This document shows, one piece after another, positions 1,723 through 62,494 of a DNA stretch of 64,000 nucleotides. Each line of letters begins with the position of its first letter. Positions within the stretch are counted from its first letter, which is position 1. The position numbers were made by a program, and so were the translations under genes. Below the pieces are notes generated by a model. It ran no database searches. It had not been told where the DNA came from and was given only the letters and a program-made list of their open reading frames with translations. The DNA comes from Stegostoma tigrinum. Taxonomy: Eukaryota. Location: NCBI RefSeq assembly GCF_030684315.1, contig NC_081373.1, positions 28,869,989 through 28,933,988 of the forward strand, given 5' to 3'.

Positions 1723-1941
1723 AAGATAACAAAGTGTGGGGCTGGATGAGCACAGCAGGCCAAGCAGCATCTCAGGAGCACAAAAGCTGACATTTCAGGC
1801 CTAAACCCTTCATCAGAAAAGTGTCTAGGCCCGAAACGTCAGCTTTTGTGCTCCTGAGATGCTGCTTGGCCTGCTGTGTTCATCCAGCCCCACACTTTGT
1901 TATCTTGGATTCTCCAGCATCTGCAGTTCCCATTATCTCTG
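1723..1941 (+). mobile_element. Short palindromic PLE insertion, family A (inverted arms plus 34-nt tail)
   Basis: Arms 1723-1810 and 1819-1906 are near-perfect inverted repeats. Tail 1907-1940. Perfect 12-bp TSD gctacaggagag at 1711-1722 and 1942-1953. Sequence matches the 3' end of the PLE ending at 35171. Confidence 0.92.
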
Positions 1942-3319
1942 GCTACAGGAGAGGACACTGCTGCCCTCTCTCAAGAGGACAGCATGCCCACTTGCCCAGT
2001 ATTTTCTCTGACAGTTTCCTTGTTATTTCATATGGCCAGCTACATCATACTGCCCTAATCCACACTCACTAGTCTGCAGAAGAAGGCTTACATCACCATG
2101 TTTTTTGAAGAGATGAGGCATTCTTTTTCATAGATCCAGGGACACCTTTGGAAGAAGTAAGGTCCCCTTTAGAAAAGGTCACTTGCCCTTTGGGATTGTT
2201 TAAAAAAAAAGCATGAATACATGTAAAAAGTGGAATACCTAATTGGAACTGTCAAACTTGCTGGGATTATCAGTCAGTCAGAGAACTGTCAAAGAGGTCC
2301 CGAGCTGTTGAGACATTTAAATGTATGGAAAAATTGTTGTCAACGTGAAGAAAAATCAGAGCTTGCTGTTTCACTATACATGTTGTTATAAGCCTGAGGA
2401 GATAATTAGGGATTTGTGATATATAATTGTATTCACATCATATCATCATGACTGTGAGATGCCTGTCATGTCACAATTTCTGTTATAGCTCCATGTGCTT
2501 ATATAATCTTTAAGATAATGCTGTGAATGCCAGCAGTATTCAATAAGGAATTAATTAGTTGAAGGAAGCTAATTATAGACAGTGGGATGTTGTTAGTGAG
2601 AATATTTCTTTTTAATCACAACAAATTCATCAATAAATACAGAGAACTTTATCTTATTTAATCATGAGTTGAACAGATCCTGAGTTCTGCCCATAATAGA
2701 TACAGGATAAGTTGGCATGGAGGAAATAAGAGAGGTGATGAAGGATATGGCATGGAGAGTATGAGGGGCAATGGTGTGGGTTGGGAACACAAGGTGGCAT
2801 GAGTTGACATGGATAGTGCAAGGAGAGTTTGTGGTAGAGTGACAGGTTGTGAGGTGAAAGGGCTGAAAGATAGTTATGTTTTATTTCATTGCTTTTTTAA
2901 AAATTGCATTTGGGACAAAGTGGTGGAGCATAGAGGCTGGCCTTTCTCACAGCCCATGTCCATATCATCAGCCCATCTAGTTACTTCTAAACATTTTCTG
3001 TGGACAGTAGGCCCAACTCCCATAAACAACCTCATCCTAAAATTAAAATCTGATTGACCAGGGTACTTTCTCCTGAGGCAGGTTGAGAACTGCACATATA
3101 ATGTAAGAAAAACACATTGTTGAGTACGTATACTTTACTTTTAGCAGGATCACAATTTTTTTAGAAACTGTTGTATTTATCATTCACCTCCTTGGAATGT
3201 GCTCCATTCCGTTCACAATGAGACTGATTATTGCTGCAGTAAGAAGCACAGATGACAGTAGCCTGTCTGAACCCCTTGAAATGGATATTTTTCTTCCTCA
3301 AATCCATTGCAGCCACTTT

Positions 3320-3444
3320 TGGATATTTTTAATCAAAATCAACTTGTTCAGACATATTCTGACACACTTCCAGAGCAGCTTGGATCTCATGCTAGGTCTT
3401 CCAGCCCAGAGGTCAAGTCACTACAAATATGACATAAGAGGCCT
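3320..3444 (-). mobile_element. Short (about 120 bp) tRNA-derived SINE
   Basis: Homologous to 4695-4814 (ggcctcttatg... head, ...ctgaacaagttgatt...aaaatatc tail on the minus strand). Confidence 0.55.
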
Positions 3445-4694
3445 ACTTGTAGTGTGCTTCATCATGAGTGGGGTCACAGTTGAGCCCAATGCTGTACAAT
3501 TAAGAATTAATCAGCAGATATTCAGATGCACAAACTTCACAAGCAAGTCTTTTTAACTTTAACATAAACATTAATGAGCACAAATGGCTAACTTTTTTTC
3601 GGATTATTGTTGCAATTATGCCAGTGTTGTACAGCATAAGAACCCTCAGCATTGTTGTGGTTGGAATGAACTGCATTGTGCGTTACTGCATTTACAGAAC
3701 TATGCAAGAGAAATAAAGAAAACTGAAAATCAGGTTGTCACTTCTTACAAAAGGTCTAAAAATTCCCTGTATTTGTTGATCCCAGATATTTGATTTCTAA
3801 TACTTGTGTAGGCAATAACCGTAATTGATATTAAGCTTTCCATGGGTCGTAGTGCATCAACAAACCTGGTCTGAGCTAAACTCCAATGTTAAATGTAAAG
3901 GAAACACAATTTGTTTCTTTTTGCTCACATTGATGCTTCAAGCCATTGGGCCAATCCATCTTTAATGGTAAGGATCTCCTTCCCTTTCTGTCACGGATCA
4001 ATGATTTTTAAAAAAGAATTTGACCAGTACTTAGCTTTTTTGACTGAAACTGTCTGATACACTTTTGCCCAGCAGCTATAAACCCCACAGTTGGACAGCA
4101 GACTATCAGATGAAGACTAATTAGGCATTGTGATTAAACTGGTTGAAATAAATACACTGCCATTCAGTAAGGTACTGGAGCCTTCCAGTCTCACCCAAGA
4201 ATACTAGCTTCTGCACACAGGCATGAAACAATACTGGTCAAAATTCAAGTGAGGATTAAATATATTGGCTCTGGATAAACAAAACTTGAACTACAGTAAT
4301 AAACTCAGAAAGGCATCCTTGATATCTGTAGATTTTATTATAGCGAGGTGCTGTCTTAAAGGCCCATTCACGAGGAAAGTTGAAAAGCTCATTGTGCCTT
4401 GTGCATAATTAGAAAGCTTTAAGTGACCAGTTAATAGGAATAAGGTGGATTATGAACTGCATCACTTTTCTAATGGTAGGATGCTGGACAGAGATAGCAA
4501 TCATACCAAACTCCTAAACCTTACAGTTCAGAAAAGAGATGGCAGAAATGGTCATGGAGGTTTGTGCCAGCAATAATAGAAGCCTTTGGAGATTGAGGAA
4601 TAGGTAAAAATATTTGGATTTGAAAGGCAATTCTGTGATTTTGCAGCAAAACACTATGTTCAGAGAATTCGGGCAAGGTCAGAAAAGCATATTG

Positions 4695-4814
4695 TAGATA
4701 TTTTCTAATCAACCTGTTCAGAGATGGTGTTACATACTTCTAGCACAAGTGGGATTTGTGCAAAAGACCTTCTGGCTGAAAAGTAGGAACATGGCCACTG
4801 TACCACAAGAGGCC
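4695..4814 (-). mobile_element. Short tRNA-derived SINE
   Basis: Minus strand starts ggcctcttgtggtacagtgg (A-box-like), has a decayed B box, and ends tctgaacaggttgattagaaaatatc. Second copy at 3320. Confidence 0.6.
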
Positions 4815-4816
4815 AT

Positions 4817-4923
4817 AGACTGCAACACCTATTCCCAGGTAGTCTCTCATCCAACTGACTGACCAGGTGTGAGTTGGCTTATTTTCTGAGATCAGGCATT
4901 TTCAGAGTAGTATGGCCATTGTC
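4817..4923 (-). pseudogene. 5S rRNA-derived copy (pseudogene or SINE3-like head)
   Basis: tattcccaggtagtctctcatccaa...accagg...gctta...gagatcag...tcagagtagtatggcc aligns with the reverse complement of vertebrate 5S rRNA, with CpG decay and an internal deletion of about 11 nt. Confidence 0.85.
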
Positions 4924-5387
4924 TTAATGAGGTATCCATTTTGTACCATATCACCAGCAATTCACTGGAATGTTTCTGCCTGGTTTTGAAGCACCACCCT
5001 GTCATATGTAAAGCAAAAATGCTCACCACTACATTACACAAACAGAGCAATCAGAACTTCAATTTTCGCTACTATGGTGTAGGTTCCAGTTTAGAGCAAA
5101 GAATTGTAGGAGCGCTCCAACATACAAAGAAAAAGGGTATGGAAAAATAAAAATAAATGCATCTCACAGATTTATGTGTATTTTAGGTTGTTCTGGTTGA
5201 TGCATTATGCAGATTGAAAGTTTTGGAAACTGGTAAAGTGAGCAGGATGGATTTTACTTTTGTGATTATGACCATGATTCATGGAACCTTACAAGACTCA
5301 TGGGGCTACCATTTCGTTTACATTCATTACTTTATGTTCATCAATTTTATCCAGTTTTCAACTTTCTACAGGAGATGTAATTAGGTC

Positions 5388-5696: not shown

Positions 5697-6327
5697 TAAT
5701 AGTAGGAGTACGTGGTGTGCACATCTTGATTAGTTTAAATGCAGATGAGTGATTCATTGAATTTATTCTCAAAAAACAACAAAGGTAAGATTGCCAAGAC
5801 ATGATTGATAACTGATGATCAAATAAACTTATTAATGGACTAAGTCACGGGGGGCTAGGAATCTTCACCGGATTAAATGTAGACCAATGAACTAACAGAA
5901 TGTGGTCCTTTTGGATAAACAACAGGAAGGCTACCTAGGCTTGGTTTAACAGATAAAGTGCAATTCACAACTTGGGTTGTTCCCTCTGAGCTGTATAGAA
6001 GCTCCCTGGGTGTAACAAAGTGGAGTATTTCCCTACAGGGAAAGAATGTACACCATGAATTCTACAAAAGGAAAGAGTGCAGATCTTCCAGTGTTTGAAG
6101 TTGGTATGTGAGTCAGACAGCTGCTAACCAAAATAAAAGGTTGTCTATGCTTAAATAAACTATCACTTTGAAGTAACATTGCAGCATGGGATCCAGGTAA
6201 CTGACATTTTTGAAGTATGCACACTGCCTGCAGTATCCCCAACTATGAATTGTGTGGCTTCTATGTGCTCTGAGATTGTCCCATCTCACTTTCCAGCTCC
6301 TACCTGTCAATGACTACTACATCCATG

Positions 6328-6454
6328 ATGCGCAAATATTGGTGTTGGACTGGGGTGGACAAGGCCAGGTGACGAAAGGGCTACGCTCTGAACACTTGTG
6401 CTTTCAAATAAACCTGTTGGATTATAACCTGCTGTCATGTGATTTCTGACCTTG
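6328..6454. mobile_element. Short old PLE-derived inverted insertion (separate family) with decayed hammerhead
   Basis: A minus-strand tail (ggtgttggactggggtggacaaggccag) is joined to a plus-strand arm starting gtgacgaaagggctacgctctgaacac and ending ctgaccttg, complementary to caaggccag. Degenerate TSD ctacatccatg (6317) / ctatatcaatg (6455). Confidence 0.55.
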
Positions 6455-19200: not shown

Positions 19201-20140
19201 AAGTGTCTGCAGCTTGAGGACCTCTGGTTCAGAAACAATGGGCAGAATCTCATAGATGTCTGAACAATGGGTTATGGTGAGACATGCGACAGAATCAGGC
19301 AAAAAGACTGGTGAGACCAAAATCATTGCCTCTTTTTTGTTTTTCATAAGCCGCACCATGGGTTTCTTACCAGGCAGTGGTATGTTGCCAATTAAAGGGC
19401 ATTATTGCTCATTAGACATCTTTTTTTTCTGGCCCAACTTACCTCATTAATATTTATCTTTCTACAGATTGGACCATCAGTATCTCATGGCTGCTCCCTT
19501 CCTCTCTTAGCATTCACTCACTTAGCACCTTCCTGCATGCTGGCAGTACCCATGCCTTCCCTTGCTTTGTTTACCTTGCTTGTTAGTGCACTGGCTCTTC
19601 AGCCAGAGCCAAAGGATTTCAATATTGCTACACAGAGGTGTGCCTTCATATATTCACAGGTAGGTTTAGATTGCTTATCAATAAGGATATGACATTAGTG
19701 GGGGCGGGGGTCGGTGGGCAGGGGTATCTTGCTGCACAATACATTGAGAAGACAATGTAACATTCACACATACCTGAATGGCAAACACACTCTGCATTTA
19801 TTCCATCAAATGGCCACATCAGAAACTGGGTGTGGGCCAGGCTTCAGACCCATCAAACTGGAGTTGGGGTGTCAGGGTAAGGATGGCACATTGTGGGCGG
19901 GTAAGTCACTGTCTGTCGGGGCTTGGTACTGTCAGTTGCAGGCACAATCTACACATGGTCCAAGGTCTTCATCACGGTCAGTCATCTACTTGGGATGCTC
20001 AGAGGCAGGGGATCTGTCCCGGTACAATCTGGGGTCAGTCATGTAGTGTCAGGGGAATCATATTGTCAGTAGGGGAGCTGCAAACCCAACCTGTTATGTC
20101 TAGATGCTGATTGCCATTGTGCTACAACATGCTATAAACG

Positions 20141-22705
20141 GTGGCTGAAAGAACTTTTGATGAGGACTCGTCTACTGAGGTTGCTGAGGAAGGTTTGTCG
20201 ACTGAGTCAGTATGGGTAGAAGTTAGGAACAGCAAGGGAGCAGTCACCTCATTGGGGGTTTTCTACAGACCCCCAAACAGCAGCAGGGAGATTGAAGAAC
20301 TCATTGGCCAGCAGATTGTTGAAAAGTGCAAACGTAGCAGGGTTGTTGTCATGGGCGACTTCAACTTTCCCAATATTGATTGGAACCTCCTTAGTGCAGA
20401 TGGTTTGGATGGAGCCGTTTTTATCAGGTGTGTTCAGGAGGGATTCCTTACTCAGTATGTGGACAGGCCAATGAGGGGGGAGGCCATTTTGGATTTGGTG
20501 CTCGGCAATGAGCCAGGACAGGTGTCAGATGTCACGGTGGGAGAACATTTTGGCGACAGTAACCACAACAGCCTCACATTTACCGTAGCCATGGACAGGG
20601 AAAGGAGCAGTTCCCAGGGGAAGCTATTTAACTGGAGAAAAGGAAACTATGACGCTATCAGGCAGGAGTTGGGAAGTACAGATTGGGAGCAATTGTTCCA
20701 CAGAAAGGGCACAGCAGACATGTGGACACTGTTCAAGGAGCAGTTGTTGCGAGAGATGCATAAATTTGTTCCTCTGAGACAGGTAAGAAGGGGTAAGATT
20801 AAGGAGCCTTGGATGACGGGAACAGAGGTGCTTCTTGTCAAAAAGAAAAAGGCAGCTTACGTAAGGTGGAGGAAGCAAGGGTCTAGTACAGCTTTAGAGG
20901 ATTACAGGCTTGCTCGGAAGGAGCTCAAAAGTGGACAGAGGATGGCCAGGAGGAGGCACGAAAAAGGCTCGGCAGGAAGGATTAGGGAGAACCCGAAGGC
21001 ATTCTACTTACACGTGAGGAATAAGAGAATGATCAGGGAGAAGGTAGGGCCGATCAGGGATAACGGGGGGAACTTGTGCGTGGAGTCTGAGCAGATAGGA
21101 GAAGCCCTAAATGAGTTTTTTGCTTTGGTTTTCACTAAGGAAAGGGACCTTGTTGTGAATGAGAACTTTGAGGAGCAGGAAAACAGGCTTGAACAGATCG
21201 AGATTGAGGAAGTTGATGTGCTGGAAAGTTTGGCAAATATTAAGATTGATAAGTCCCCAGGGCCAGACCAGATTTATCCGAGGTTGCTCCGGGAAGCGAG
21301 AAAGGAGGTTGCTAAGCCGTTGGCGAAGATCTTTGCTTCCTCACTCTCCACGGGAGTCGTACCAGAAGATTGGAGGGAGGCAAATGTTGTTCCTCTTTTC
21401 AAGAAAGGGAATAGGGAAATCCCTGGAAATTACAGACCAATCAGTCTTACGTCTGTGGTCAGCAAGGTTTTGGAAAGAATTCTGAGGGATAGGATTTATG
21501 ACTATTTGGAAAAGCATAGCGTGATTAAAGGGAGTCAGCATGGCTTTGTGAGGGGCAGGTCATGCCTCACAAATCTTATTGAGTTCTTTGAGGAGGCCAG
21601 GAGATAGGTTGACGAGGGTTGAGCAGTGGATGTGGTGTACATGGACTTCAGCAAGGCGCTTGATAAGGTTCCCCACAGCAGGCTCAGGAGGTATGGGATA
21701 CAGGGTGATTTGGCTGTCTGGATTCAGAATTGGTTGGGTGACAGGAAACAGAGAGTGGTTGTAGATGGTAAGTATTCTGCCTGGAGGTCAGTGCTGAGTG
21801 GTGGCCCACAGGGATCTGTTCTTGGGCCTCTGCTCTTTGTAGTTTTTATAAATGGCTTGGATGAGGAGGTTGAGGGGCGGGTTAGTATGGTTGCTGATGA
21901 CACAAAGGTTGGAGGTGCCGTTGATAGTATTGAGGGCTATTGCAGGCTTCAGTGAGGCATTGACAGTATGCAGAACTGGGCTGAGAAATGGCAGATGGAG
22001 TTCAACCTGGATAAATGCGAGGTGATACGTTTTGGAAGGTCAAACTTAAATGCTGAATATAGGATTAAAGGCAGGATTTTCGGCAGTGTGGAGGAACAGC
22101 GGGGTCTTGGTGTTCAAGTGCATAGCTCCCTCAAAGTTGCCACCTAAGCGGATAAGATTGTTAAGTTTGCATATGGTGTTTTGGCTTTCATTAACAGGGG
22201 GATTGAGTTTAAGAGCTGCGAGGTTATGCTGCAGCTGTACAAAACCCTGGTGAGACCACACTTGGAATATTGTGTCCAGTTCTGGTCACCCTATTATGGG
22301 AAAGATGTGGAGGCTTTGGAGATGGTGCAAAGGAGGTTTACCAGGATGCTGCCTGGACTGGAGGGCTTGTCTTACGAGGAGAGGTTGACTGAGCTCGGAC
22401 TTTTCTCTCTGGAGAGAAGGAGGAAGAGAGGTGACCTGATCGAGGTGTACAAAGTAATGAGAGGCATGGATAGAGTCGATAGCCAGAGACTTTTCCCCAG
22501 GGCAGGATTGGCTGCCACGAGGGGTCATAGTTTTAAGGTGTTAGGAGGAAGGTATAGAGGAGACATCAGAGGGAGGTTCTTCACCCAGAGAGTTGTGAGC
22601 GCATGGAATACTTTGCCAGTGGTAGTCGTGGAAGCGGGGTCATTAGTGACATTTAAGCGACTGCTGGACATGCACATGGACAGCAGTGAATTGAGGGGAA
22701 TGTAG
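20141..22705 (+). pseudogene. CR1 ORF2 (endonuclease/reverse transcriptase), disrupted
   Basis: Motifs YRPPNS, MGDFN, LDLVL, GDSNH, KSPGPD, NYRPISLTS, QHGF, DFSKALDKV, GPQGSVLGP, VADD and RGDLIEVYK are spread over ORFs 20141-21607, 21626-21955 and 22181-22705, separated by stops. Confidence 0.93.
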
Positions 22706-23233: not shown

Positions 23234-23273
23234 GCACTGAGGATGTTACCCAGCATGGTAATGAAACATCTGC
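23234..23273 (+). ncRNA. Minimal type I hammerhead ribozyme motif (probably decayed)
   Basis: gca-CTGAGGA-t-gttacc-cagcat-ggtaat-GAAA-catc-tgc. Stems I and II pair. The stem III palindrome acgt has become acat. Confidence 0.7.
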
Positions 23274-33366: not shown

Positions 33367-33369
33367 CAG

Positions 33370-35171
33370 ATGCACCTGCATTCCGCATGGAGATGGCCTC
33401 AAAGCCCTCCGCTTCTTCCTATCCCGCAGGCCCGACCAGTCCCCCCTCCACCGACACTCTCATCCGCCTAGCTGAACTCGTCCTCACACTCAACAACTTC
33501 TCTTTTGACTCCTCCCACTTCCTACAGACTAAGGGGGTGGCCATGGACACCCGCATGAGCCCCAGCTATGCCTGCCTCTTTGTAGGTTACGTGGAACAGT
33601 CCCTCTTCCGCACCTACACAGGCCCCAAACCCCACCTCTTCCTCCGGTACATTGACGACTGTATCGGCGCCGCCTCTTGCTCCCCAGAGGAGCTCGAACA
33701 GTTCATCCACTTCACCAACACCTTCCACCCCAACCTTCAGTTCACCTGGGCCATCTCCAGCACATCCCTCACCTTCCTGGACCTCTCAGTCTCCATCTCA
33801 GGCAACCAGCTTGTAACTGATGTCCATTTCAAGCCCACCGACTCCCACAGCTACCGAGAATACACCCAAATTCCATCCCCTATTCCCAATTCCTCCGCCT
33901 CCGCCGCATCTGCTCCCACGATAAGACATTCCACTCCCACACATCCCAGATGTCCAAGTTCTTTAAGGACCGCAACTTTCCCCCCACAGTGATCGAGAAT
34001 GCTCTTGACCGCGTCTCCCGTATTTCCCGCAACACATCCCTCACACCCCGCCCCCGCCACAACCGCCCCAAGAGGATCCCCCTCGTTCTCACACACCACC
34101 CTACCAACCTCCGGATACAACGCATTATCCTCCGACACTTCCGCCATTTACAATCCGACCCCACCACCCAAGACATTTTTCCATCCCCTCCCCTGTCAGC
34201 TTTCCGGAGAGACCACTCTCTCCATGACTCCCTTGTTCGCTCCACACTGCCCTCCAACCCCACCACACCCGGCACCTTCCCCTGCAACCGCAGGAAATGC
34301 TACACCTGTCCCCACACCTCCTCCCTCACCCCCATCCCAGGCCCCAAGATGACATTCCACATTAAGCAGAGGTTCACCTGCACATCTGCCAATGTGGTAT
34401 ACTGCATCCACTGTACCCGGTGCGGCTTCCTCTACATTGGGGAAACCAAGCGGAGGCTTGGAGACCGCTTTGCAGAACACCTCCGCTCAGTTCGCAACAA
34501 ACAACTGCACCTCCCAGTCGCAAACCATTTCCATTCCCCCTCCCATTCTCTAGATGACATGTCCATCATGGGCCTCCTGCAGTGCCACAATGATGCCACC
34601 CGAAGGTTGCAGGAACAGCAACTCATATTCCGCCTGGGAACCCTGCAGCCATATGGTATCAATGTGGACTTCACCAGTTTCAAAATCTCCCCTTCCCCTA
34701 CTGCATCCCTAAACCAGCCCAGTTCGTCCCCTCCCCCCACTGCACCACACAACCAGCCTAGCTCTTCCCCCCCACCCACTGCACCCCAAAACCAGTCCAA
34801 CCTGTCTCTGCCTCTCTAACCGGCTCTTCCTCTCACCCATCCCTTCCTCCCACCCCAAGCCGCACCCCCAACTACCTACTAACCTCATCCCACCTCCTTG
34901 ACCTGTCCGTCTTCCCTGGACTGACCTATCCCCTCCCTACCTCCCCGCCTACACTCTCTCCACCTATCTTCTTTACTCTCCATCTTCAGTCCGCCTCCCC
35001 CTCTCTCCCTATTTATTCCAGTTCCCTCTCCCCATCCCCCTCTCTGATGAAGGGTCTAGGCCCGAAACGTCAGCTTTTGTGCTCCTGAGATGCTGCTTGG
35101 CCTGCTGTGTTCATCCAGCCTCACATTTTATTATCTTGGAATTCTCCAGCATCTGCAGTTCCCATTATCTC
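33370..35171 (+). mobile_element. Neptune-like PLE, family A, 5'-truncated, with tailed 3' end
   Basis: RT motifs GVAM..RMSPSYA and LRYIDD (ORF 33387). Cys-rich linker PCNRRKCYTC and GIY-YIG NVVYCIHC..C..LYIGETKRRL..RF.EH (ORF 33950-34819). Pyrimidine-rich UTR, hammerhead, terminus cccattatctc. Confidence 0.95.
35042..35073 (+). ncRNA. Minimal type I hammerhead ribozyme motif
   Basis: ct-CTGATGA-a-gggtctaggccc-GAAAC-GTC-ag. Intact core with a GUC cleavage triplet at 35069-35071. Confidence 0.85.
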
Positions 35172-35189
35172 CAATCCCCTAACCATGCC

Positions 35190-44754: not shown

Positions 44755-45280
44755 TAGGAAAGAAGGGCTACGTTCATGTAATGCCTTTCCCAACCTTAAC
44801 ACTTTACTGACAATGAAATCCTTTTGAACACTGTATCACTATTGCAGGAAGTACAGCCAAGAATTTGTACACAGTAACCTCCTACAAACATCAACAAAAC
44901 AAATGACCAGACCAGAGATAGTAAGAACTGCTGGTGCAGGAGTCAGAGATAACACAGTGTGGAGCTGGAGGAACACAGCAGGCCAGGCAGCATCAGAGGA
45001 GCAGGAAAGCTGTCATTTCAGGTCGGGACACTTCTACAGAATTTCTGAAGAAGGGTCCCGACCCAAAAAGACAGCTTTCCTGCTCCTCTGATGCTGCTTG
45101 GCCTGCTGTGTTCATCAGCTCCACACTGTGTTATATACGACCATACCATCTCTTTTAGGTGTTCACAGAAGGATAAACGTTGGGAGAAACTGCTGAAAAT
45201 CACAGATCAGCAAATTGAATCTTTTATGGTTACCTGGGAGGAGAGACATTACACCTCAGTTTAATATTTCATCTGAAAGC
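44755..45280 (-). mobile_element. Deu-domain SINE (SacSINE1/AmnSINE1-like), interrupted by a short PLE palindrome
   Basis: aatttgtacacagtaacctcctacaaaca...atgaccaga and tcttttat...cctcagtttaatatttcatctgaaag match the reverse complement of the DeuSINE body as I recall it. Confidence 0.65.
44915..45136 (-). mobile_element. Short palindromic PLE insertion (sister family of A)
   Basis: Tail gagatagtaagaactgctggtgcaggagtcag. Inverted arms at about 44949-45040 and 45042-45134 meet at two decayed hammerheads (CTGAAGAagggtcccgaccc). TSD gaccagacca 44905-44914 / gaccatacca 45139-45148. Confidence 0.85.
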
Positions 45281-45834
45281 AATAAAAATGATTTGGTGTC
45301 AAATCCATCAGCACCTTAGCAGAGATTAGAGATCACAATTAAAAAGAGAAATCTAATGAGCTGAAGCATTTTTCACTGTAGCTGTGAATATTAATAAATA
45401 GTCTGATAGTGATCTTCACAATTATGAAAGGTTATGATGATATCAATGCTCCTTGCTCTTCTTTGTAGATACTTTGGGCAAAAACAATGCACTGGGGAAT
45501 GCTGGGTACGTGAAAGCATCACTGTGGGTGGGTACAGGCCAGACACGTCAGTTTAAGAATTCTCTCACGTAAAGATCTTCCTTAGTAATAGGGATAGGAC
45601 TAGAGGTGCAATGGCAGGTCTGATGAACCAACATCTGTGGTCTAGTTGGCAAATTGAGAACTTTCTGACTGCTGTTTCTGAACAACAACCAAAGGTATGG
45701 GCTTGAGGATAAGTGGGAAAAGGCAAGATTGGCATTTTCCTTTCCTGGCCTTCATTATCTTGCTGACGGCAACCTGACCATTTGTCTGATCTTTAATGAG
45801 CATACAAAAAGCCAAACATCAATTGCTTTGACCA

Positions 45835-46062
45835 CAAAAACAGAAGTTGCTGGAAAAGCTTAGCAGATCTGGCACATCTGTGAAGAAAAAGATAAGAGTT
45901 AACGTTTCAGGTCCGATGAGTCTTCAGTTCTGAGGATGGGTCACCGGACCTGAAACGCTAACACTGATTTTTTTTTCACTGATGCTGCCAGACCTGCTGA
46001 GCTTTTCCAGCAACTTCTGTTTTGGTTTCTGATTTACAGCATCCGCAGTTCTTTTGGTTTTT
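45835..46062 (+). mobile_element. Short palindromic PLE insertion (family C)
   Basis: Arms caaaaacagaagttgctggaaaagc... and ...gcttttccagcaacttctgttttgg. Hammerhead CTGAGGAtgggtcaccggacctGAAAcgcta at 45930-45960. Tail of about 37 nt. TSD atcaattgctttgacca 45818-45834 / atcaatttctttgagca 46063-46079. Confidence 0.87.
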
Positions 46063-46349
46063 ATCAATTTCTTTGAGCATCCTTGAAAATGGGTGCTTTC
46101 TGACCTTCAAGACTGAAGGGATTAAATATCCTATTTTACATTATTTCCATGGTTTCTGAAGTCTTGCACTACTTAAGTGGGTTTCCAAAGTGTGTTGGAG
46201 AGGAATATCGGGCTGACAGTTTTAGATTTAAACTTCATTGTCACATGTACTCAAGCATAAAAGTACAGGAGTACAGTGAAAAGTTTTCAACCTCATTTCA
46301 CATGGCACCATTGTAATGAATGATAAGTACTGATAGATCACAGCAATTG

Positions 46350-49675: not shown

Positions 49676-49805
49676 GCGTCTGGTGAAGTTGAGTTACTTT
49701 AATATCCAGGATTCCTATTAAGAGATATTTTGGATGCCAATCTGATTCTGATTCTGTCCTTCTATGTTTTTTATCCACCAGCACACGTGGTTCTGTCTTG
49801 TCATG

Positions 49806-52475
49806 ATAACAAAGTTTGAAGCTGGATGAACACAGCAGGCCAAGCAGCATCTCAACAGCACAAAAGCTGATGTTTTGGGCCCAGACCCTTCATCAGAGAG
49901 GGCAAGGGGGAGAGGGTTCTGGAATAAATAGGGAGAGGGGGGAGGCGGACCGAAGATGGAGAGAAAAGAAGGTAGGTGGAGAGTAGAGTATAGGTGAGGA
50001 GGTAGGGAGGGGATAGGTCAGTCCAGGGAAGGCGGACAGGTCAAGGAGGCGGGATGAGGTAGTAGGTAGGAAATGGAGGTGCGGCTTGAGGTGGGAGGAA
50101 GGGATGGGTGAGAGGAAGAACAGGTTAGGGAAGTGGAGACAGGCTGGGCTGGTTTTGGGATGCAGTGGCGGGAGGGGACGAGCTGGGCTGGTTGTGTGAT
50201 GCAGTGGGGGAGAGGGGAAGAACTGGGCTGATTTTGGAATGCAGTGGGGGAAAGGAAGATTTTGAAGCTGGTGAAGTCCACATTGATACCATTGGGCTGC
50301 AGGGTTCCCAAGCAGAATATGAGTTGCTGTTCCTGCAACCTTCGGGTGGCATCATTGTGGCACTGCAGGAGGCCCATGATGGACATGTCGTCTGAGGAAT
50401 GGGATGGGAGTTAAAATGGTTTGCGACTGGGAGGTGCAGTTGTTTATTGCAAACCGAGCGGAGGTGTTCTGCAAAGCGGTCCCCACTTGGTTTCCCCAAT
50501 GTAGAGGAAGCCACACCGGGTACAATGGATACAGTATACCACATTGGCAGATGTGCAGGTGAACATGTGCTTAATACAGAAAGCCATCTTGGGGCCTGGG
50601 ATGGGGGTGAGGTAGGAGGTGTGGGGGCAAGTGTAGCGCTTCCTGCGGTTGTAGGAGAAGGTGCCGGGTGTGGTGGGGTTGGAGGGAAGCGTGGAACAGA
50701 CAAGGGAGTCACAGAGAGCGTGGTCTCTCCGGAAAGCAGACAAGGGTGGGGTTGGAAAAATGTCTTGGGTTGTGGGGTCGGATTGTAAATGGCGGAAGTG
50801 TCGGAGGATGATGCGTTGTATCCGGAGGTTGGTAGGGTGGTATGTGAGAACGAGGGGGATCGTCTTGGAGCGGTTGTGGCGGGAGCGGGGTGTGAGGGAT
50901 GTGTTGCGGGAAATGCGAAAGACGCGGTCAAGGGCGTTTTCGACCACTGTGGGAGGAATGTGGCAGTCCTTGAAGAACATGGACATCTGGGATGTGCGGG
51001 AGTGGAATGCCTCATCCTGGGAGCAGATGCGGCGGAGGCGGAGGAATTGGGAATAGGGGATGGAATTTTTGCAGGAGGGTGGGTGGGAGGAGGTGTATTC
51101 AAGGTAGCTGTGGGAGTCGGTGGGTTTGAAATGGACATCAGTTACAAGCTGGTTGCCTGAGATGGAGACTGAGAGGTCCAAGAAGGTGAGGGATGTGTTG
51201 GAGATGGTATAAGTGAACTTGAGGTTGGGGTGGAAGGTGTTGGTGAAGTGGATGAACTGTTCGAGCTCCTCTGGGGAGCAAGAGGCGGCGCCGATACAGT
51301 CATCAATGTACCGGAGGAAGAGTTGGGGTTTGTGGCCTGTGTAGGTGCGGAAGAGGGACTGTTCCACGTAACCTACAAAGAGGCAGGCATAGCTTGGGCC
51401 CATGCAGGTACACATGGCCACCCGCTTTGTCTGTAGGAAGTGGGAGGAATCGAAAGAGAAGTTGTTGAGGGTGAGGACAAATTCGGCTAGGCGGATGAGG
51501 GTGTTGGTGGAGGGGGATTGGTCGGGCCTGTGGAACAGGAAGAAGCAAAGGGCCTTGAGGCCATCTGCATGAGGAATACAGGTGTATAGGGACTGGACGT
51601 CCATGGTGAAAATGAGGTGTTGGGGACCAGGGAGTTGGAAGTTCTGGAGGAGGTGGAGGGCATGGGTGGTGTCACGGATGTAGGTAGGGTGCTCCTGGAC
51701 CAAAGGGGAGAAAATGGAATCCAGATAGGTGGAGATGAGTTCAGTGAGGCAGGAACAAGCTGAGACAATGGGTGGACCAGGGCAGGCAGGTTTGTGGATT
51801 TTGGGAAGGAGATAGAAATGGGCCGGGTGGGGTTGGGGAACAATGAGGTTGGAGGCTGTGGGTGGGAGGTCCCCTGAGGTGATGAGGTCATGGATGGTGT
51901 TGGAGATGATGGTTTGGTGCTCGGGGGTGGGGTCACGATCAAGGGGGTGGTAGGAGGTAGTGTCGGAGAGTTGGCATTGGGTCTCGGCAATGTAGAGGTC
52001 AGTGCGCCATACCACCACTGCGCTACCCTTGTCTGCGGGTTTGATGGTGAGGTTGAGGTTGGAATGGAAGGAGCGGAGGGCTGCCCGTTCTGCGGGGGGA
52101 GAGGTCGGAGTGGGTGAGAGGGGTGGAGAGGTTGAGGTGGTTGATGACTCGACGGCAGTTGGAGATGAAGAGGTCAAGGGAGGGAAGGAGGTCTGGGGGT
52201 GGTGTCCAGGAAGAGGACTTGTGTTGGAGGTGAGTGAAGGGGTCAGTGGAGGGAGAGTTAGGCTCCCGGTTAAAGAGTAAGTGTGGAGGCGAAGGTGGCG
52301 GAAAAACTGCTCGATGTCCAAACGTGACTGGTATTCGTTGATGTGTGGGTGGAGGGGGCAAACCTGTGCCCCTTGCTTTGGACTGACCATTCGTCCTCAG
52401 TCAGTGGGAGGTCTGGGGGGATGGTGAAGATTCGTCAGGGCTCAGTGTGGCTGTCTTCTCTGGGGTTGCTACATC
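49806..52475 (-). mobile_element. Neptune-like PLE, family A, 2.67 kb, 5'-truncated, tail-less 3' end
   Basis: Contains most of the RT plus GIY-YIG and a decayed hammerhead at 49869-49896. Perfect 14-bp TSD tctgtcttgtcatg at 49792-49805 and 52476-52489. Confidence 0.95.
50444..52390 (-). pseudogene. PLE reverse transcriptase/GIY-YIG ORF (648 aa open, frame-disturbed at both ends)
   Basis: PLE signatures IKPADKG, FYLLPKIHK, MDVQSLYTCIP, MGPSYA, LRYIDD, LTFLDL and NVVYCIHCTRC.FLYIGETK. Relative to the 33950 copy, a deletion after YIGETK shifts the frame. Confidence 0.92.
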
Positions 52476-52489
52476 TCTGTCTTGTCATG

Positions 52490-53400: not shown

Positions 53401-54714
53401 ATTGATCCTTTTCTTTGCTCAGGCATGACCCACAATCTTTCAAAGATGTCAATATCAGTCTTTCTGAAAAAGCCTACCTCTGCTCCTGCCATCCTCTTCA
53501 ACTGTTGCCTTACCTCTAACCCTCTTTTCCACTCTAAAGTCCTTGAATCATCTAATTGGATTCTTTTGGTGTACTTTACCAACTACTCTAAGTTATAGTC
53601 ACTAAAAATATCCTCAGTGACCATAGCTGTAGGACAAGGCTCTTTTTAAACAATTGTAGATAGCTGATTTCTTGTTCATGAACTGGTTACAATATCTCTC
53701 TCTGTGATCTCTTTTGGCAATATCTCAATGTTTATTTACACAAGATTAAGAAATGTAAAGTGTTTAAAGCCTGTGTTATTGGTAGTTCAATAAGCTAAAT
53801 GATTGACACTTGTAGGAGCATTTTTTTGAGAAAGAAGATTCGAGATTTGTGAGTTAGCATGGGTCTATAAGGGGCCATGGTGGTAATTGGGTTTTGACAG
53901 AGTGTGAAGGGTAAGGGCCAGAAACTTTTGACACAACAGGGGCAATGTCCTAAGAGAGTTGGCTTTCTTACTAACATTGGCATTCACTGCCCCTATGGCT
54001 ACCTACACTCTGCAAAGAGCAGGGATTAATGGATATTTTTCACCTTGGTAAACTGTAGCTAATTCAGTGCAACAGTGATCATTGTTAATGGCTCAACTAC
54101 TTACAATTTATATTAATGACTGGGATGAAAAGACCAAACATATCACAGCCAAATTTGCCAATGACACCAAGATAGTTAGGAAAGTAAGTTGTCGAGAAGA
54201 GGTAGAGAGCATGCTTGAGGGTATAGGTAGGTTAAATGAATAGACAAAAATGATAAATTGGATACAATATGGGGAAAATGTGAACTTGTCTACTTTATAA
54301 GGAAGAATAGAAAAGCTGTAGATCAGTTAAATATTGCAGCACCTCATGGAATAGTGAGATCTGGCTATCCTGTTCTATGAATCACAAAAATTTATTGTGC
54401 AGGTGCAACAAGTAGTTGGAGGGCAGATAGAATGTTGGCAGTCCAATAGGAGTGTAATAGAAAAGGAGCAGAATATAGAAAGGAAGGTAGAATATTAACG
54501 TAAACTAGTAAAAACAAAAACATTGAGTATAAAATCTTCTTTAGGTTTATGAAAAGGAAACATTCCATTAAGTTAAAGGTTGGTCAATAGCAAGCAGACT
54601 CAGAAGGATTTATCAGAGATAATGGGAACTGCAGATGCTGGAGATTCCAAGATAATAAAATGTGAGGCTGGATGAACACAGCAGGCCAAGCAGCATCTCA
54701 GGAGCACAAAAGCT

Positions 54715-54742
54715 GACGTTTCGGGCCTAGACCCTTCATCAG
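54715..54742 (-). ncRNA. Minimal hammerhead ribozyme motif
   Basis: Reverse complement CTGATGAagggtctaggcccGAAACGTC, intact. Confidence 0.85.
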
Positions 54743-55275
54743 AGAGGGGGATGGGGGGAGGGAACTGGAATAAATAGGGAGAGAGGCGGAGGCGGACCGA
54801 AGATGGAGAGTAAAGAAGATAGGTGGAGAGGGTGTAGGTGGGGAGGTAGGGAGGGGATAGGTCAGTCCAGGGAAGACGGACAGGTCAAGGAGGTGGGATG
54901 AGGTTAGTAGGTAGCTGGGGGTGCGGCTTGGGGTGGGAGGAAGGGATGGGTGAGAGGAAGAACCGGTTAGGGAGGCAGAGACAGGTTGGACTGGTTTTGG
55001 GATGCAGTGGGTGGGGGGGAAGAGCTGGGCTGGTTGTGTGGTGCAGTGGGGGGAGTTCTTCCTCTCACCCATCCCTTCCTCCCACCCCAAGCCGCACCCC
55101 CAGCTACCTACTAACCTCATCCCACCTCCTTGACCTGTCCGTCTTCCCTAGACTGACCTATCCCCTCCCTACCTCCCCACCTACACCCTCTCCACCTATC
55201 TTCTTTACTCTCCATCTTCGGTCCGCCTCCCCCTCTCTCCCTATTTATTCCAGTTCCCTCCCCCCATCCCCCTCT

Positions 55276-55303
55276 CTGATGAAGGGTCTAGGCCCGAAAC
55301 GTC
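55276..55303 (+). ncRNA. Minimal hammerhead ribozyme motif
   Basis: CTGATGAagggtctaggcccGAAACGTC, intact. Confidence 0.85.
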
Positions 55304-55954
55304 AGCTTTTGTGCTCCTGAGATGCTGCTTGGCCTGCTGTGTTCATCCAGCCTCACATTTTATTATCTCAGAAGGATTTATTTTGGGGAACAGAGAACAG
55401 CAGAGAAGGTAAATGATTATTGTGGGGTCAAACTGTCCTAGAGCCTGTATAATGTCTGCATTGGCAAGAACCTTGGAAAAGTGGGATGATATTGGCATTA
55501 GGAAGATTCACAAGGTCAAGAGCATAAGGTCCCATTCTCCAACCAAGTGTAGAACTTCAACAAAAGAATCTTAGTGTGAGTTGTGAGAGATGCATTTTCA
55601 CCAATTTGTATGGACTAGCATATCATTATGAGTTTATCTCACCTCATTTATATGCACTTTCCAGAATGATTTCCAAATCTCCCACCCACTAGACAGAAAA
55701 TATATAATAGCAATTCCCAATATGAAATTCAGACTAGTTACCTGGTGACTTCAACTTCCTTTATGCTCCTCCAATCTTGGTCTCAGTGCATGCTGCATGG
55801 ACAGTGACGCCAAAAGACCCTATCCACAGATATTGGCTAAATGCATCCTTGTGGCACATCTGTAATCCATTCATCGTACAGTCTGCACTTCATTGCTACA
55901 ATTTGGAGTGCATAGGCACCCTTCATTGCAATGGTGCTGACATGACATTTTGTA

Positions 55955-56085: not shown

Positions 56086-56810
56086 AAATGTGATGACAGA
56101 TTTACAATGAAATTTAACCTACACCACTTATGTACCTTGTAAAGATGTTCTTCTTTCTTTCTTTCTTTCCTTCCCACTATGCCTCAATACAGTCCCACAT
56201 TGTATAGCTGGGCCAGAGGCAGCCTGCTACAAAATGGAACATGCTGGCCTTGAGGTTTTAGATGGGGCCTGGGATATTTTTGTCTAGAGGGTCCAGATAT
56301 GCTGAGTGTGTCCTGCCGAGATGCTGGTGTACCTTCCTCAGCTTGGATGCCCACAGGGCTGAGGGTGGCAGGCAGGTTGGAGGTGGAAGGCTTGGCCACC
56401 TCTGCAGTGTTCAAAGACAAGACTTCTGGGGCAACTGTGTGTAGTTCCTTCTCCAGCTGAGTGCCTACTGGCTCTGGTCTGTCTCCTTGTGTGTAAGGGG
56501 TAGCTGGAGTGATGCCAAGGTCCTTCAACCCAATGTCTCCTTGCTGTTGGTACTGAGCACCAGTGACTGAAGTGATGGACTGCAGGTTTGTGTATATATC
56601 CAGCAGACAATGAGTGAGTTGTACCCAGTTGCCGAGCTATCCGTGGAGGGAGCCAAACATCATCTGCCAGAAGCAGCATTGTGCAAACAACATTAGCAGG
56701 GTCTTCCAACATTTGAGTCAGTTTGTCCAGTGTACCTGGTTGCTCCTGTTGTGTCTGCTTGTGAGTTTCCATGAAATTCTGAACTTATAACACCATGGGA
56801 TCCTTTCTTG

Positions 56811-56981
56811 CCTTTCTGATGAAGGGTCTAGGCCTGAAACGTCAGCCCTCTGATGAAGGGCCTAGGCCCAAAATGTCAGCTTTTGTGCTCCTGAGATGCT
56901 GCTCGGCCTGCTGTGTTCATCCAGCTTCACGCTTTATTATCTTGGATTCTCCAGCATCTGCAGTTCCCATTATCTCTATCT
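56811..56981 (+). mobile_element. 171-bp PLE family A insertion with two tandem hammerheads
   Basis: Hammerheads at 56816-56843 and 56850-56877, then the standard tailed 3' end. Perfect 16-bp TSD atgggatcctttcttg at 56795-56810 and 56982-56997. Confidence 0.92.
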
Positions 56982-57118
56982 ATGGGATCCTTTCTTGTGT
57001 GGACCTGAGTAGGTGATCTGGGGCATTTCTTCGTTGATCAGCTGTGGAGATGCAGCAGGAAAGTGCTTACCAGCATGTGCTCCTGCTCTAATTAGGTGAA
57101 AATATCCATCTGGATTTT

Positions 57119-58174: not shown

Positions 58175-58275
58175 AACAAAAACAGAAGTTGCTGGAAGTT
58201 CAACAGTTCTGGCAGCATCTGTGAAGAAAAAACCTGAGTTAACATTTTGGGTCTGGTGACCCTTTCTCAGAACTT
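58175..58275 (-). mobile_element. Short PLE family C terminal remnant (tail-less arm only)
   Basis: aacaaaaacagaagttgctggaa...ggcagcatctgtgaagaaaaa...gagttaacattttgggtctggtgaccctttctcagaact is nearly the same as the left arm at 45835. Confidence 0.7.
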
Positions 58276-59829: not shown

Positions 59830-60805
59830 TGATTTTTAAGCAAGTAGCAAATCATAATATAGGCGTGAGTAAAGAGCCAAGAGTGGAGGACAATTGAAGT
59901 TGAATGACAGAAGGAATGTTAGTGCAAGGCAAAAGGACATAGTAACGGGGCAAGGGAGCAACAAAAGGTGGGCCTAGAAAAGCTGTAAACAGCTTCACCA
60001 GAATTATTACCTGCTATCCAGAAGATTGGAAGAGTGGTTATGAACTGAAATTGTTGAATTCAATGTTGGACCCACAAGGCTGTAAAGTGCCTAATCGAAA
60101 GAAGGACTATAATGATACTGCCTATTCAAAATCAACAATAATTAAACATGAAAAATCTAATAAGGTTAGGTTTTTTGTTGACCTCAAGAAACAATGACAG
60201 GTTTGCCTTATTACACTTTCAGCTTTGTTACAACAGTAGAGGAGGTCAAGGTCAGAGAGACTGAAGTAGGAGTGAGGTGAAGAACGAAAGTGACAATTAC
60301 CTGAAAGGTCAATGTTACAGTTATGGTCTGAATGAAGGTGCCCAAAAGCTATCACCCAAATATATGTCTGGCTCTCCATTTAAAAAAGAAACTGCATGGA
60401 AAGTGACAAATACAGTACAGTAAACTGGAACATTGTATACAAATAAGTCCCTGTTTAATCTGGAAAGAGTACTCGAACTTTTGTATGATGACAAGAGATA
60501 TGGTAAAAGGCAGTTTTGTTCCTTGTGCTTGCAAGGGAGGCTGCCATGATTAGGGTATCACATAGGGAATAGTATTTTTGCAATGCTGAAAAGAGAGCAG
60601 AGGGGAAGAATTCTCATCAGGTGGCATCGAACTGGGGATAGTAAAAATGGTGAAGATTAATTGCTGAATATGAAGGCAGGTTGGTTAGAGGTTAAGGACA
60701 AGGGAAACTCAATTGTAGTTCTGGGAGGCAGAGCAAAAGGTGAGAGAAATGTGAGAAAAGGGATGAACAGAGCTGAGGGCCCTGCTAGTCATGGTGGGAG
60801 AACAT
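59830..60805 (-). mobile_element. Old Neptune-like PLE remnant
   Basis: tgaaattgttgaattcaatgttg...aggctgtaaagtgcct (reverse complement of the endonuclease C-terminus), similar to 38425-38470 and 50270-50310. Confidence 0.6.
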
Positions 60806-61138
60806 TGAATATATATTGGAAGCACTGGTAATGAATTAAGGCACCCTTCCATTACCAGTGCCTTATCAATTCCTACCGTCATTATTTTAGACATTCTTCT
60901 TCTTCCCTCCGCACTCCTCCCTCATTTTCCTTGCATGCTTATACTTCCTCTTCTCTTTCCAACTGTTTTAAATATATGGGATAATTGAATTAGTGGCTGG
61001 TTTGTTGCCATTTTCATACTTATAATGGCTCAGTACGATGGAGGAAATGGTATTATTTCTAATTTCAGGCTGAAGAGCTGGAGTAATTAAAGGATATAAC
61101 ATGGAAGAAATATTAATCACAAAAATTGAATTCTTTAT

Positions 61139-61368
61139 CAGGGATTGGTTAATTTAGTTGGCTGGGTAGTTGGTTGGCAATGAAGAGTGATGGATTCAGT
61201 GTGGGTTCAATCCCAACACTGTTTGAAGTTATCATGAAGGACTCTCCTTCTCAACCTTTATCCACCACTGAGGCATGGTCACCCTCTAGTTAAACCAACA
61301 TGACCTGTCATCTCTCTCTCTAATGAGACTGCAGCCCTATGTTCAGCTATGTCAACTTTACCTTTCAT
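61139..61368 (+). mobile_element. tRNA-derived SINE (another family), target of the Poseidon palindrome
   Basis: A-box-like ggttaatttagttgg, B box gtgggttcaatccc, 3' end aactttacctttc. Confidence 0.6.
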
Positions 61369-61405
61369 GGATGTGAGTTTGCTCGCTGAGCTGGAAGGTT
61401 AGTTT

Positions 61406-61445
61406 TCAGACGTTTCGTCACCATTCTAGGTAACATCATCAGTGA
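61406..61445 (-). ncRNA. Minimal hammerhead ribozyme motif
   Basis: Reverse complement tca-CTGATGA-t-gttacc-tagaat-ggtgac-GAAAC-GTC-tga. All stems pair. Confidence 0.88.
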
Positions 61446-62027
61446 GCCTCCGACGAAGCGCTGGTGTTATGTCCCGCTTTCTATTTATCTGGTTAGGTTT
61501 CCTTGGGTTGGCGATGTCATTTCCTGTTCTTTTTCTCAGGGGATGGTAGATTGGCTCCAAATCAATGTGTTTGTTGATGGAGTTCCGGTTGGAATGCCAT
61601 GCTTCTAGGAATTCTCGTGCATGTCTCTGTTTGGCTTGTCCTAGGATGGATGTGTTGTCCCAATCAAAGTGGTGTCCTTCCTTATCTGTATGTAAGGATA
61701 TGAGTGATAGTGGGTCATGTCGTGGGTCATGAACATCAACTAGCCACAAAATGACATGACCCACTATCACTCGTATCCTTACATACAGATAAGGAAGGAC
61801 ACCACTTTGATTGGGACAACACATCCATCCTAGGACAAGCCAAACAGAGACATGCACGAGAATTCCTAGAAGCATGGCATTCCAACCGGAACTCCATCAA
61901 CAAACACATTGATTTGGAGCCAATCTACCATCCCCTGAGAAAAAGAACAGGAAATGACATCACCAACCCAAGGAAACCTAACCAGATAAATAGAAAGCAG
62001 GACTAACACCAGCGCTTCGTCGGAGGC

Positions 62028-62067
62028 TCACTGATGATGTTACCTAGAATGGTGATGAAACGTCTGA
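62028..62067 (+). ncRNA. Minimal hammerhead ribozyme motif
   Basis: tca-CTGATGA-t-gttacc-tagaat-ggtgat-GAAAC-GTC-tga, with one C>T change in stem II. Confidence 0.82.
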
Positions 62068-62494
62068 AAACTAACCTTCCCGCTCAGCGAGCAAACTCAC
62101 ATCCAGAGCCTCAACCTGAGCTACAAATCTTCTCAAAACTCGCTAGTTTACCTTTCATCTTTAGCAATGCTAGCTCCAAGGGTATAGAAATGTTATACTT
62201 TAATACAATAATGTTTGTGTAGCCTACTGTCTTCACAAATCTACTGCTGTGAGCTTAACATTTATCCCATTGAGTCCGATGGTCAAATGTGATTGGATCA
62301 TGGTAATCCAACCTCATGATACCTGCAGATTGGGGAGGGAGGGTCACTGAATTACAAGGGTTACAAATGAGTCATCGAAAGTGATGCTTTCCAGAAGATT
62401 CACATGGCGTTGTGCTTAAACATTGGCATTTTGTTGCAGGAATATAAAAGTTTGACTGGTGCTGTTCCAGTCACAAACTATGCAAGCCATGACT

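What the first reader, a model, noticed from the sequence alone, without database searches (positions are those of the whole stretch)
1723..62146. Recurrent double-3'-end palindromic insertions of hammerhead-bearing Penelope-like elements across several families
Seen: at least five TSD-flanked insertions (1723, 44915, 45835, 54614, 61369, plus decayed ones at 6328 and 38170) share one architecture. Two overlapping copies of the element 3' region point outward; one has a 34-41 nt tail and the other stops at a fixed internal site. Both Neptune-like and Poseidon-like families do this. Known: PLEs have direct or inverted pseudo-LTRs with a short tail and carry minimal hammerheads. Inference: both staggered target nicks (12-17 bp apart) prime separate cDNAs over the same RNA region, and these are then joined at their truncation points. 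This differs from L1 twin priming, where the two parts do not overlap, and it would need two RNA templates or re-copying of one. Here the outcome is so common that it mass-produces MITE-like hairpins by retrotransposition.
Basis: partly seen in the sequence, partly recalled or inferred. Interest (0 to 1): 0.8.

Follow-up and report, generated by a model that had tools for sequence, protein, structure and literature searches.

The report
Head-to-head Penelope retrotransposon insertions
These are insertions of a known type of jumping gene in which two shortened copies sit back to back; the layout is already described, but here nearly every pair has exactly one end extension and both halves usually come from the same source, which points to how the element copies itself.

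Summary
The five main loci are real head-to-head Penelope-like (PLE) insertions with one tailed and one tail-less end. Four have clear 12-15 bp TSDs and one TSD is decayed. Locus 6328 overlaps by only ~8 nt, and 38170 is not confirmed.

The layout (inverted pLTR, one-sided 30-40 nt tail, minimal hammerhead) is published. So are nicking and extension of both strands and two internal RT start sites bounding the tail (PAc, in vitro).

What the genome sample adds:
- 46 of 48 unselected pairs and 19 of 20 Poseidon-like pairs are tail/tail-less; none is tail/tail.
- Junctions vary (78 classes in 86), so this is not a MITE family.
- The two inner ends usually stop close together, and either arm may be the longer.
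- Arms share rare variants, and 5 of 6 informative pairs share an identical internal deletion.

Best reading: both nicks prime, one at each start site, on one RNA. A minority of pairs differ at recurrent markers, and gene conversion is not excluded. Short hairpins pile up just 5' of the hammerhead in the Neptune-like families only.

The parts
1711..1722 (+). left TSD copy, 12 bp (right copy 1942-1953)
1723..1817 (-). family A (Neptune-like) tail-less arm, positions -34 to -128 from the tail end
1819..1941 (+). family A tailed arm, -121 to 0; tail 1907-1941 (35 nt)
6325..6453 (.). family D decayed pair: tail-only arm (minus, 6325-6368) then tail-less arm (plus, ~6370-6453); ~8 nt overlap, weak TSD
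33370..35171 (+). solo tailed family A copy (RT end, GIY-YIG, hammerhead core at 35044); reference for coordinates; no TSD found
44915..45134 (.). older family A pair: tailed arm minus 44915-45040, tail-less arm plus 45044-45134; decayed TSD
45832..46062 (.). family B pair: tail-less arm minus 45834-45919, tailed arm plus 45920-46062; TSD 45818-45831 / 46063-46076
49806..52475 (-). solo tail-less family A copy, 2.67 kb, 14-bp TSD (49792-49805 / 52476-52489); shows the inner site can start an insertion on its own
54614..55366 (.). young family A pair: tailed arm minus 54614-55055 (to -440), tail-less arm plus 55057-55368 (from -346); arms 99% identical; TSD 15 bp
56811..56977 (+). family A direct partial tandem (-132..-97 then -129..0), 16-bp TSD (56795-56810 / 56982-56997)
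58175..58274 (-). solo tail-less family B copy
61369..62146 (.). family C (Poseidon-like) pair: tail-less arm minus 61369-61721, tailed arm plus 61729-62146; tail 62106-62146 (41 nt); hammerhead cores at 61442 (minus) and 62031 (plus); TSD 12 bp

Best explanation
Canonical endonuclease-bearing PLE insertions made by double target priming on one RNA. The element protein, probably a dimer, nicks both target strands about 12-16 bp apart (stagger read from TSDs; two-strand nicking shown in vitro for PAc; dimer only predicted). One nick primes reverse transcription at the outer internal start site (tail end), the other at the inner site 35-41 nt upstream (sites shown here as fixed insertion ends and in vitro for PAc; one-site-per-nick coupling is inferred). 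Both cDNAs copy the same RNA region, which needs strand displacement or sequential copying (inferred). They stop near the same RNA position and are joined by host end-joining with small losses or insertions (inferred). Solo copies are events in which one arm was lost or never extended (inferred). In Neptune-like families many cDNAs stop just 5' of the hammerhead core, giving ~200-bp hairpins (pile-up shown, cause unknown).
For: End pairing: 46 of 48 unselected pairs tail/tail-less, 1 tail-less/tail-less, 1 atypical, 0 tail/tail (read by eye); family C 19 of 20; family A pipeline 104 of 109, 0 tail/tail (28 of these were picked by likeness to locus 1723, leaving 76 of 81). Solo family A ends split 21 tailed: 28 tail-less, so free choice of start site would give ~50% mixed pairs. 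Inner ends within 30 nt: C 13 of 20 vs permutation mean 2.0, max 9; A 46 of 63 vs mean 30.6, max 41. The tail-less arm is longer as often as the tailed arm (A 31:25:7 equal; C 11:8:1), by up to ~850 nt. Rare variants shared by both arms: 4.6 vs 0.2 per kb shuffled (C), 1.5 vs 0.2 (A). Identical internal deletion junction in both arms of 5 of 6 informative TSD-flanked pairs, while the 21 deletion junctions listed from the loci all differ. PMC11167929: PAc cleaves and extends both strands, RT starts at two sites bounding the tail, dimer predicted.
Against: Some pairs differ at recurrent markers. A 9-nt loop inversion (1,098 vs 5,705 exact copies) gives 18 normal/normal, 3 inverted/inverted and 4 mixed pairs on C1 0-47 Mb. 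A 21-nt duplication differs between arms in L180 and L192. L188's arms carry different haplotypes. L150's deletion junctions differ, and L158's tailed arm lacks the break seen in its putative partner, though its TSD is weak. [quoted passage not shown] Shared variants could come from arm-to-arm gene conversion, and two RNAs from one source locus would look the same. Copying one RNA twice is not demonstrated.
Confidence: 0.55

Rival explanations
1. Double priming on two RNA molecules held by an asymmetric dimer, one subunit fixed to the tail site and one to the inner site. The two RNAs mostly come from the same source locus and occasionally from different ones.
For: Explains the one-tail rule and the minority of discordant pairs (4 of 25 for the inversion marker; L180, L188, L191, L192). 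Needs no strand displacement.
Against: Matched inner ends over 150-700 nt (13 of 20) need an extra assumption of synchronised stopping. Trans-mobilised deleted templates share the same junction in 5 of 6 pairs despite 21 different junctions in circulation. The inversion occurs on both backgrounds of a neighbouring variant, so it is probably recurrent and a weak template marker; discordant arms still share private variants.
Confidence: 0.2
2. Fold-back (self-priming): one cDNA primed at the tail end snaps back and copies itself, stopping before the protein-bound tail, then joins the other target end. This is akin to the self-priming model of PMC3846280.
For: Gives the one-tail rule, near-symmetric junctions and identical arms by construction; near-perfect 1.1-1.2 kb palindromes L177, L179, L193.
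Against: Predicts that the tailed arm is never shorter. Yet the tail-less arm is longer in 31 of 63 and 11 of 20 pairs, by up to ~850 nt, and in 4 of the 5 shared-deletion pairs. Solo tail-less copies with clean TSDs exist (49806-52475). The inner site is an RT start in vitro (PMC11167929). Rescue needs frequent later asymmetric deletion of the centre, which palindromes can undergo (general knowledge).
Confidence: 0.17
3. The short palindromes are a replicating MITE-like or non-autonomous palindromic family.
For: About 220-bp size mode; a few junction classes recur (4, 3, 2, 2 and 2 times in 86).
Against: 78 distinct junction classes in 86 pairs; TSDs of 9-21 bp, not fixed; asymmetric ends; a continuum of sizes up to >2 kb. 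The haplotype enriched among the best BLAST hits has only 85 exact copies against 117,275 for the common one.
Confidence: 0.03
4. Two successive independent insertions at one site, or later recombination between opposed copies.
For: Copy density is very high, about 86 pairs per Mb; double insertion is known for other TEs (PMC5932611).
Against: One TSD flanks the pair; 21 close head-to-head and 0 tail-to-tail pairs in the first 100 family C hits; the one-tail rule and shared private variants are not expected.
Confidence: 0.05

Closest known systems
Canonical EN+ Penelope-like elements with inverted pseudo-LTR and one-sided tail (PMC8557442 Fig. 2; PMC3846280; PMC2377424 Fig. 1C)
   Same: Inverted 5'-truncated copy head to head with the main copy, 30-40 nt tail often at one end only, TSD, partial tandems, RT plus C-terminal GIY-YIG.
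   Different: Here counted: about 96% of pairs have exactly one tail, inner ends match, arms share variants, and most pairs in Neptune-like families are ~200-bp hairpins. The passages read give no such counts; PMC3846280 proposes self-priming on an antisense template instead.
PAc (Poseidon from Anolis carolinensis) in vitro TPRT (PMC11167929)
   Same: Both strands nicked and extended; two internal RT start sites bounding the tail; ORF begins inside the hammerhead. Family C's tail end lies 110-113 nt from the ATGs in its hammerhead (and window sequence), like PAc's +111-118 start.
   Different: That paper does not discuss head-to-head products ('inverted' occurs once, for a blocking group), reports no strand difference in start site, and does not test one versus two RNAs.
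Minimal type I hammerheads of metazoan PLEs (PMC4209133) and non-LTR retrozymes (10.64898/2026.07.22.740005)
   Same: Core with palindromic 2-bp helix III in the pLTR; pairs 100-700 bp apart on opposite strands already noted; tandem arrays of deleted units occur here too.
   Different: Cleavage not tested here; truncation piles up ~30 nt upstream of the cleavage site, not at it.
L1 twin priming (recalled; mentioned in passages of 10.1101/2024.12.14.628481)
   Same: Both target nicks prime on one RNA, giving an inverted insertion inside one TSD.
   Different: In L1 the second primer anneals far upstream and the two cDNAs cover mostly different RNA parts; here both start at fixed sites 35-41 nt apart and cover the same region.

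Membership tests
EN+ Penelope-like elements | Single ORF with RT and C-terminal GIY-YIG bearing the CCHH motif | tested here: met
   L198 has a 1088-aa open frame; RVT_1 E=3.4e-5 and GIY-YIG E=0.0015, both below Pfam cut-offs; CxxC inside the GIY-YIG in families A and C read by eye. No full family C ORF was fetched.
EN+ Penelope-like elements | Pseudo-LTR from partial tandem, direct or inverted | tested here: met
   L198 has a 667-nt direct 5' repeat; L147, L167 and L173 have an inverted arm beside the 5' repeat.
EN+ Penelope-like elements | Optional 30-40 nt tail | tested here: met
   35 nt (A), 41 nt (C), about 35-39 nt (B), 37 nt (D).
EN+ Penelope-like elements | Minimal hammerhead in the pLTR | tested here: met
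   Descriptor hits 9 vs 0.05 shuffled; helix II folds, with no folding z-score better than -1.2; no Rfam gathering hit. Cleavage activity not testable.
EN+ Penelope-like elements | RT phylogeny within the PLE clade | not tested
   No reference PLE proteins were fetched.
Neptune/Nematis clades (family A) | CX2-5CxxC linker between RT and EN | tested here: met
   C-X4-C-X2-C motif upstream of the GIY-YIG in L198; criterion from PMC8557442. Neptune and Nematis not separated.
Penelope/Poseidon clade (family C) | No CX2-5CxxC linker; ORF start in the hammerhead | tested here: met
   No cysteine linker between thumb and GIY-YIG in the L184 translation; open frame from ATGs in the hammerhead.
Clade of families B and D | ORF features | not tested
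   Only their ends were seen; B is called Neptune-like from end similarity to A only.
MITE / non-autonomous DNA transposon | Fixed-length TSD, symmetric TIRs, shared internal junction | tested here: not met
   TSD 9-21 bp; asymmetric ends; 78 junction classes in 86.
L1-type twin priming | Non-overlapping inverted cDNA segments, poly(A) end | tested here: not met
   Arms overlap over their whole shared length; no poly(A).

The most novel reading that the evidence does not exclude
Double priming is the normal PLE integration route, not an accident. A dimer engages one RNA at two fixed start sites, one per nick, copies the same stretch twice and so needs no conventional second-strand priming at the far end. 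Solo copies are lopsided outcomes. In Neptune-like families a short RNA, or a hard stop at the hammerhead's 5' edge, turns this into roughly 200,000 hairpins per genome (extrapolated from 35 in 560 kb).
Probability: 0.35. Interest if true: 0.7.

Novelty: new member of a known kind. Interest (0 to 1): 0.42.

Why it matters
How PLEs form their tandem and inverted structures and one-sided tail is called undefined in PMC8557442, and the first in vitro system (PMC11167929) stops short of it. This genome holds an estimated 270,000 such pairs (extrapolated from 48 in 560 kb), enough to set rules any model must meet: one tail per pair, matched inner ends, either arm longer, one source. These rules make the one-RNA versus two-RNA versus fold-back question testable with barcoded templates. 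The elements themselves are ordinary PLEs.

Tried and rejected
- A hammerhead haplotype specific to tail-less arms, suggested by the best BLAST hits: rejected. It has 85 exact copies vs 117,275, as expected from query-driven selection of random decay.
- Position -130 as the 5' end of the long transcript: not supported. 0 of 24 5' repeats next to the element body end at -120 to -135. A short separate RNA or an RT stop remains open; the pyrimidine-rich initiator-like look of that site is recalled, not tested.
- Hammerhead cleavage as the truncation point: the cut site is about -101, but the pile-up is at -120 to -135.
- A linked variant marking an 'inversion subfamily' in family C: rejected, 2 of 100.
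- Exact microhomology measurement at junctions: unreliable because of subfamily mismatches, and not used. BLAST-level gaps ran from -7 to +44.
- Genome-wide counts of tail/tail pairs by gapped pattern were not obtained, so end-pairing counts rest on fetched loci.
- Earlier notes of this scan: nothing by place or by sequence.
- Rows dropped: duplicates L001, L115, L130, L132, L144, L146, L166, L170 and one L138 entry; the internal L046:8639 entry (49 non-window entries became 48); the 28 best-hit anchors in the inner-end statistics; L181, L184 and L194 in the family C variant test (arms too short or interrupted). 20 of the 21 close family C pairs were fetched.
Full report
Setting. The window is G000:C24:28869989-28933988 in a 3.2-Gb genome. 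Positions below are counted from the tail end (0) of each family. Family A is the 33370-35171 type, B the 45835 type, C the 61369 type and D the 6328 type.

Observation. Self-comparison shows long inverted repeats at 1723, 44915, 45835, 54614 and 61369. Each has one tailed and one tail-less outer end. TSDs are 12, 14 (1 mismatch), 15 and 12 bp at 1723, 45835, 54614 and 61369; the one at 44915 is decayed. Locus 6328 has the same polarity against family D relatives but only ~8 nt of overlap. Locus 38170 is an old minus-strand PLE 3' region, with no palindrome or family end above shuffled controls. The window also holds solo copies: tailed 33370-35171, tail-less 49806-52475 with a 14-bp TSD, and a short direct tandem at 56811.

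Identity. A full-length family A copy (L198) has a 667-nt direct 5' repeat and a 1088-aa open frame starting just past the tail. It gives weak RVT_1 and GIY-YIG hits below Pfam cut-offs and has a C-X4-C-X2-C linker, the Neptune/Nematis mark. Family C lacks that linker and opens a frame at ATGs inside its hammerhead, with the tail end 110-113 nt downstream, as in Poseidon PAc. The insertion ends are therefore internal sites of a terminally redundant element: a motif just past the tail has 2,864 exact copies. A minimal-hammerhead descriptor hits 9 times against 0.05 in shuffles; Rfam found none. Exact motif counts are 117,275 (A), 13,874 (C) and 3,232 (B).

End pairing. In 56 unselected 10-kb stretches I found 48 head-to-head pairs: 46 tail/tail-less, 1 tail-less/tail-less, 1 atypical, 0 tail/tail (read by eye). 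Of these, 35 are under 300 bp. Extrapolated, that is about 270,000 pairs per genome. Family C gave 19 of 20; its first 100 motif hits contain 21 close head-to-head and 0 tail-to-tail pairs. An automatic pass on family A gave 104 of 109 and no tail/tail, or 76 of 81 without the hits picked by likeness to 1723. Of the five exceptions, three are tail/tail-less on inspection and two are unresolved. Solo family A ends are 21 tailed, 28 tail-less and 1 unclear, so independent choice would give about half mixed pairs. TSDs were found in 68 of 73 young pairs against 0 of 73 controls, 9-21 bp long, with 49 of 68 at 13-16.

Junctions. There are 78 junction classes in 86 family A pairs, so this is not a MITE family. 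Inner ends lie within 30 nt in 13 of 20 C pairs (permutation mean 2.0, max 9; C coordinates converted by hand) and in 46 of 63 A pairs (mean 30.6, max 41). The tail-less arm is longer in 31 A pairs, the tailed arm in 25, equal in 7; for C the split is 11, 8, 1, with excesses up to ~850 nt. A copy folded back from the tailed cDNA cannot be longer than it unless the centre is later deleted. In unanchored family A, the longer arm ends at -120 to -135, just 5' of the hammerhead core, in 20 of 38 pairs, as do 24 of 65 solos. Family B ends at the equivalent place (its reference is only 143 nt long). Family C does not (0 of 40 arms). None of 24 5' repeats beside the element body ends there, so this is not simply the start of the long transcript. 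The cause is open.

One source or two. Rare variants shared by both arms run at 4.6 vs 0.2 per kb shuffled (C, 18 pairs) and 1.5 vs 0.2 (A, 37 pairs). Discordance at diagnostic sites is 10.6% vs 38.7% (A) and 14.6% vs 45.6% (C). Five TSD-flanked pairs made from internally deleted templates (L046, L120, L148, L153, L162) carry the same deletion junction in both arms; one (L150) does not. The 21 deletion junctions listed from the loci all differ. In 4 of the 5 the tail-less arm reaches further.

Against this reading: a 9-nt loop inversion in family C (1,098 vs 5,705 copies) is mixed in 4 of 25 pairs, compared with 3 double-inverted. A 21-nt duplication differs between arms in L180 and L192, and L188 is mosaic. 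The inversion lies on both backgrounds of a nearby variant, and discordant arms still share private changes, so recurrent change or conversion is plausible; real two-template events are not excluded. Arm-to-arm conversion could also inflate the sharing.

Mechanism. Shown: staggered cut, two fixed ends, one-tail rule, matched inner ends, usually one source. Shown elsewhere for PAc: both strands cut and extended, two RT starts bounding the tail (PMC11167929). Inferred: each nick takes one start site on the same RNA, the region is copied twice, and the host joins the two cDNA ends (0.55). Rivals: two RNAs on an asymmetric dimer (0.2), fold-back (0.17), successive insertions (0.05), MITE (0.03).

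Literature seen. PMC11167929: parts 1-2 of 4 and passages, no supplements; its Figs S1-S2 on start sites may bear on strand coupling. PMC4209133: parts 1-2 of 4. Passages only: PMC8557442, PMC3846280, PMC8969392, PMC2377424, PMC5932611, 10.1101/2024.12.14.628481. 10.64898/2026.07.22.740005: part 1 of 5. The older PLE reviews and the original L1 twin-priming paper were not read; L1 twin priming is recalled. Seven searches showed no paper that counts end pairing or tests one versus two RNAs, but the library lacks most subscription papers. One earlier AI note on another genome judged a similar insertion ordinary (unchecked, not support).

Verdict. Real, and a new member of a known kind. The architecture and most steps are published; the counts here sharpen an open mechanistic question into a direct test. 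Interest 0.42.

Noticed in passing
window 32929-33344: Decayed 18S rRNA piece directly abutting the 5' end of the solo family A copy 33370-35171; no TSD found, so either a template-switch chimera or an insertion into an rDNA pseudogene.
   Followed up: partly
window 56811-56977: Direct partial tandem whose first piece (-132..-97) ends a few bases past the hammerhead cleavage site; could be a jump onto a cleaved RNA piece.
   Followed up: no
family C, e.g. L188, L191, L197: Recurrent 9-nt loop micro-inversion between short inverted repeats in about 16% of copies (1,098 vs 5,705), often on one arm only.
   Followed up: partly
G000:C1:104860920-104862797, C1:110519809-110520715, C1:49657947-49658698: Tandem arrays of deleted family A units with periods of 329, 293 and 362 bp, one followed by an inverted copy; retrozyme-like.
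   Followed up: no
L147-L176: Many different internally deleted non-autonomous family A templates (5' repeat, 75-295 nt of body, deletion, 3' end); 21 distinct junctions.
   Followed up: partly
L125:1619-1664, L081:5390-5415, L180, L182: Templated or fold-back insertions at the central junction, suggestive of error-prone end joining.
   Followed up: no
L197:247-5470: LINE-like element with two ORF regions, mostly on the minus strand, between family C pieces.
   Followed up: no
L198: Full-length family A copy with a 1088-aa open frame that has no ATG at its start and begins right after the 5' tail; it ends tail-less.
   Followed up: partly
window 20138-22705, 22806-23350, 60047-60661: Degraded LINE-like RT region, an older family C-like solo end with hammerhead at 23237, and a very old PLE fragment.
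   Followed up: no
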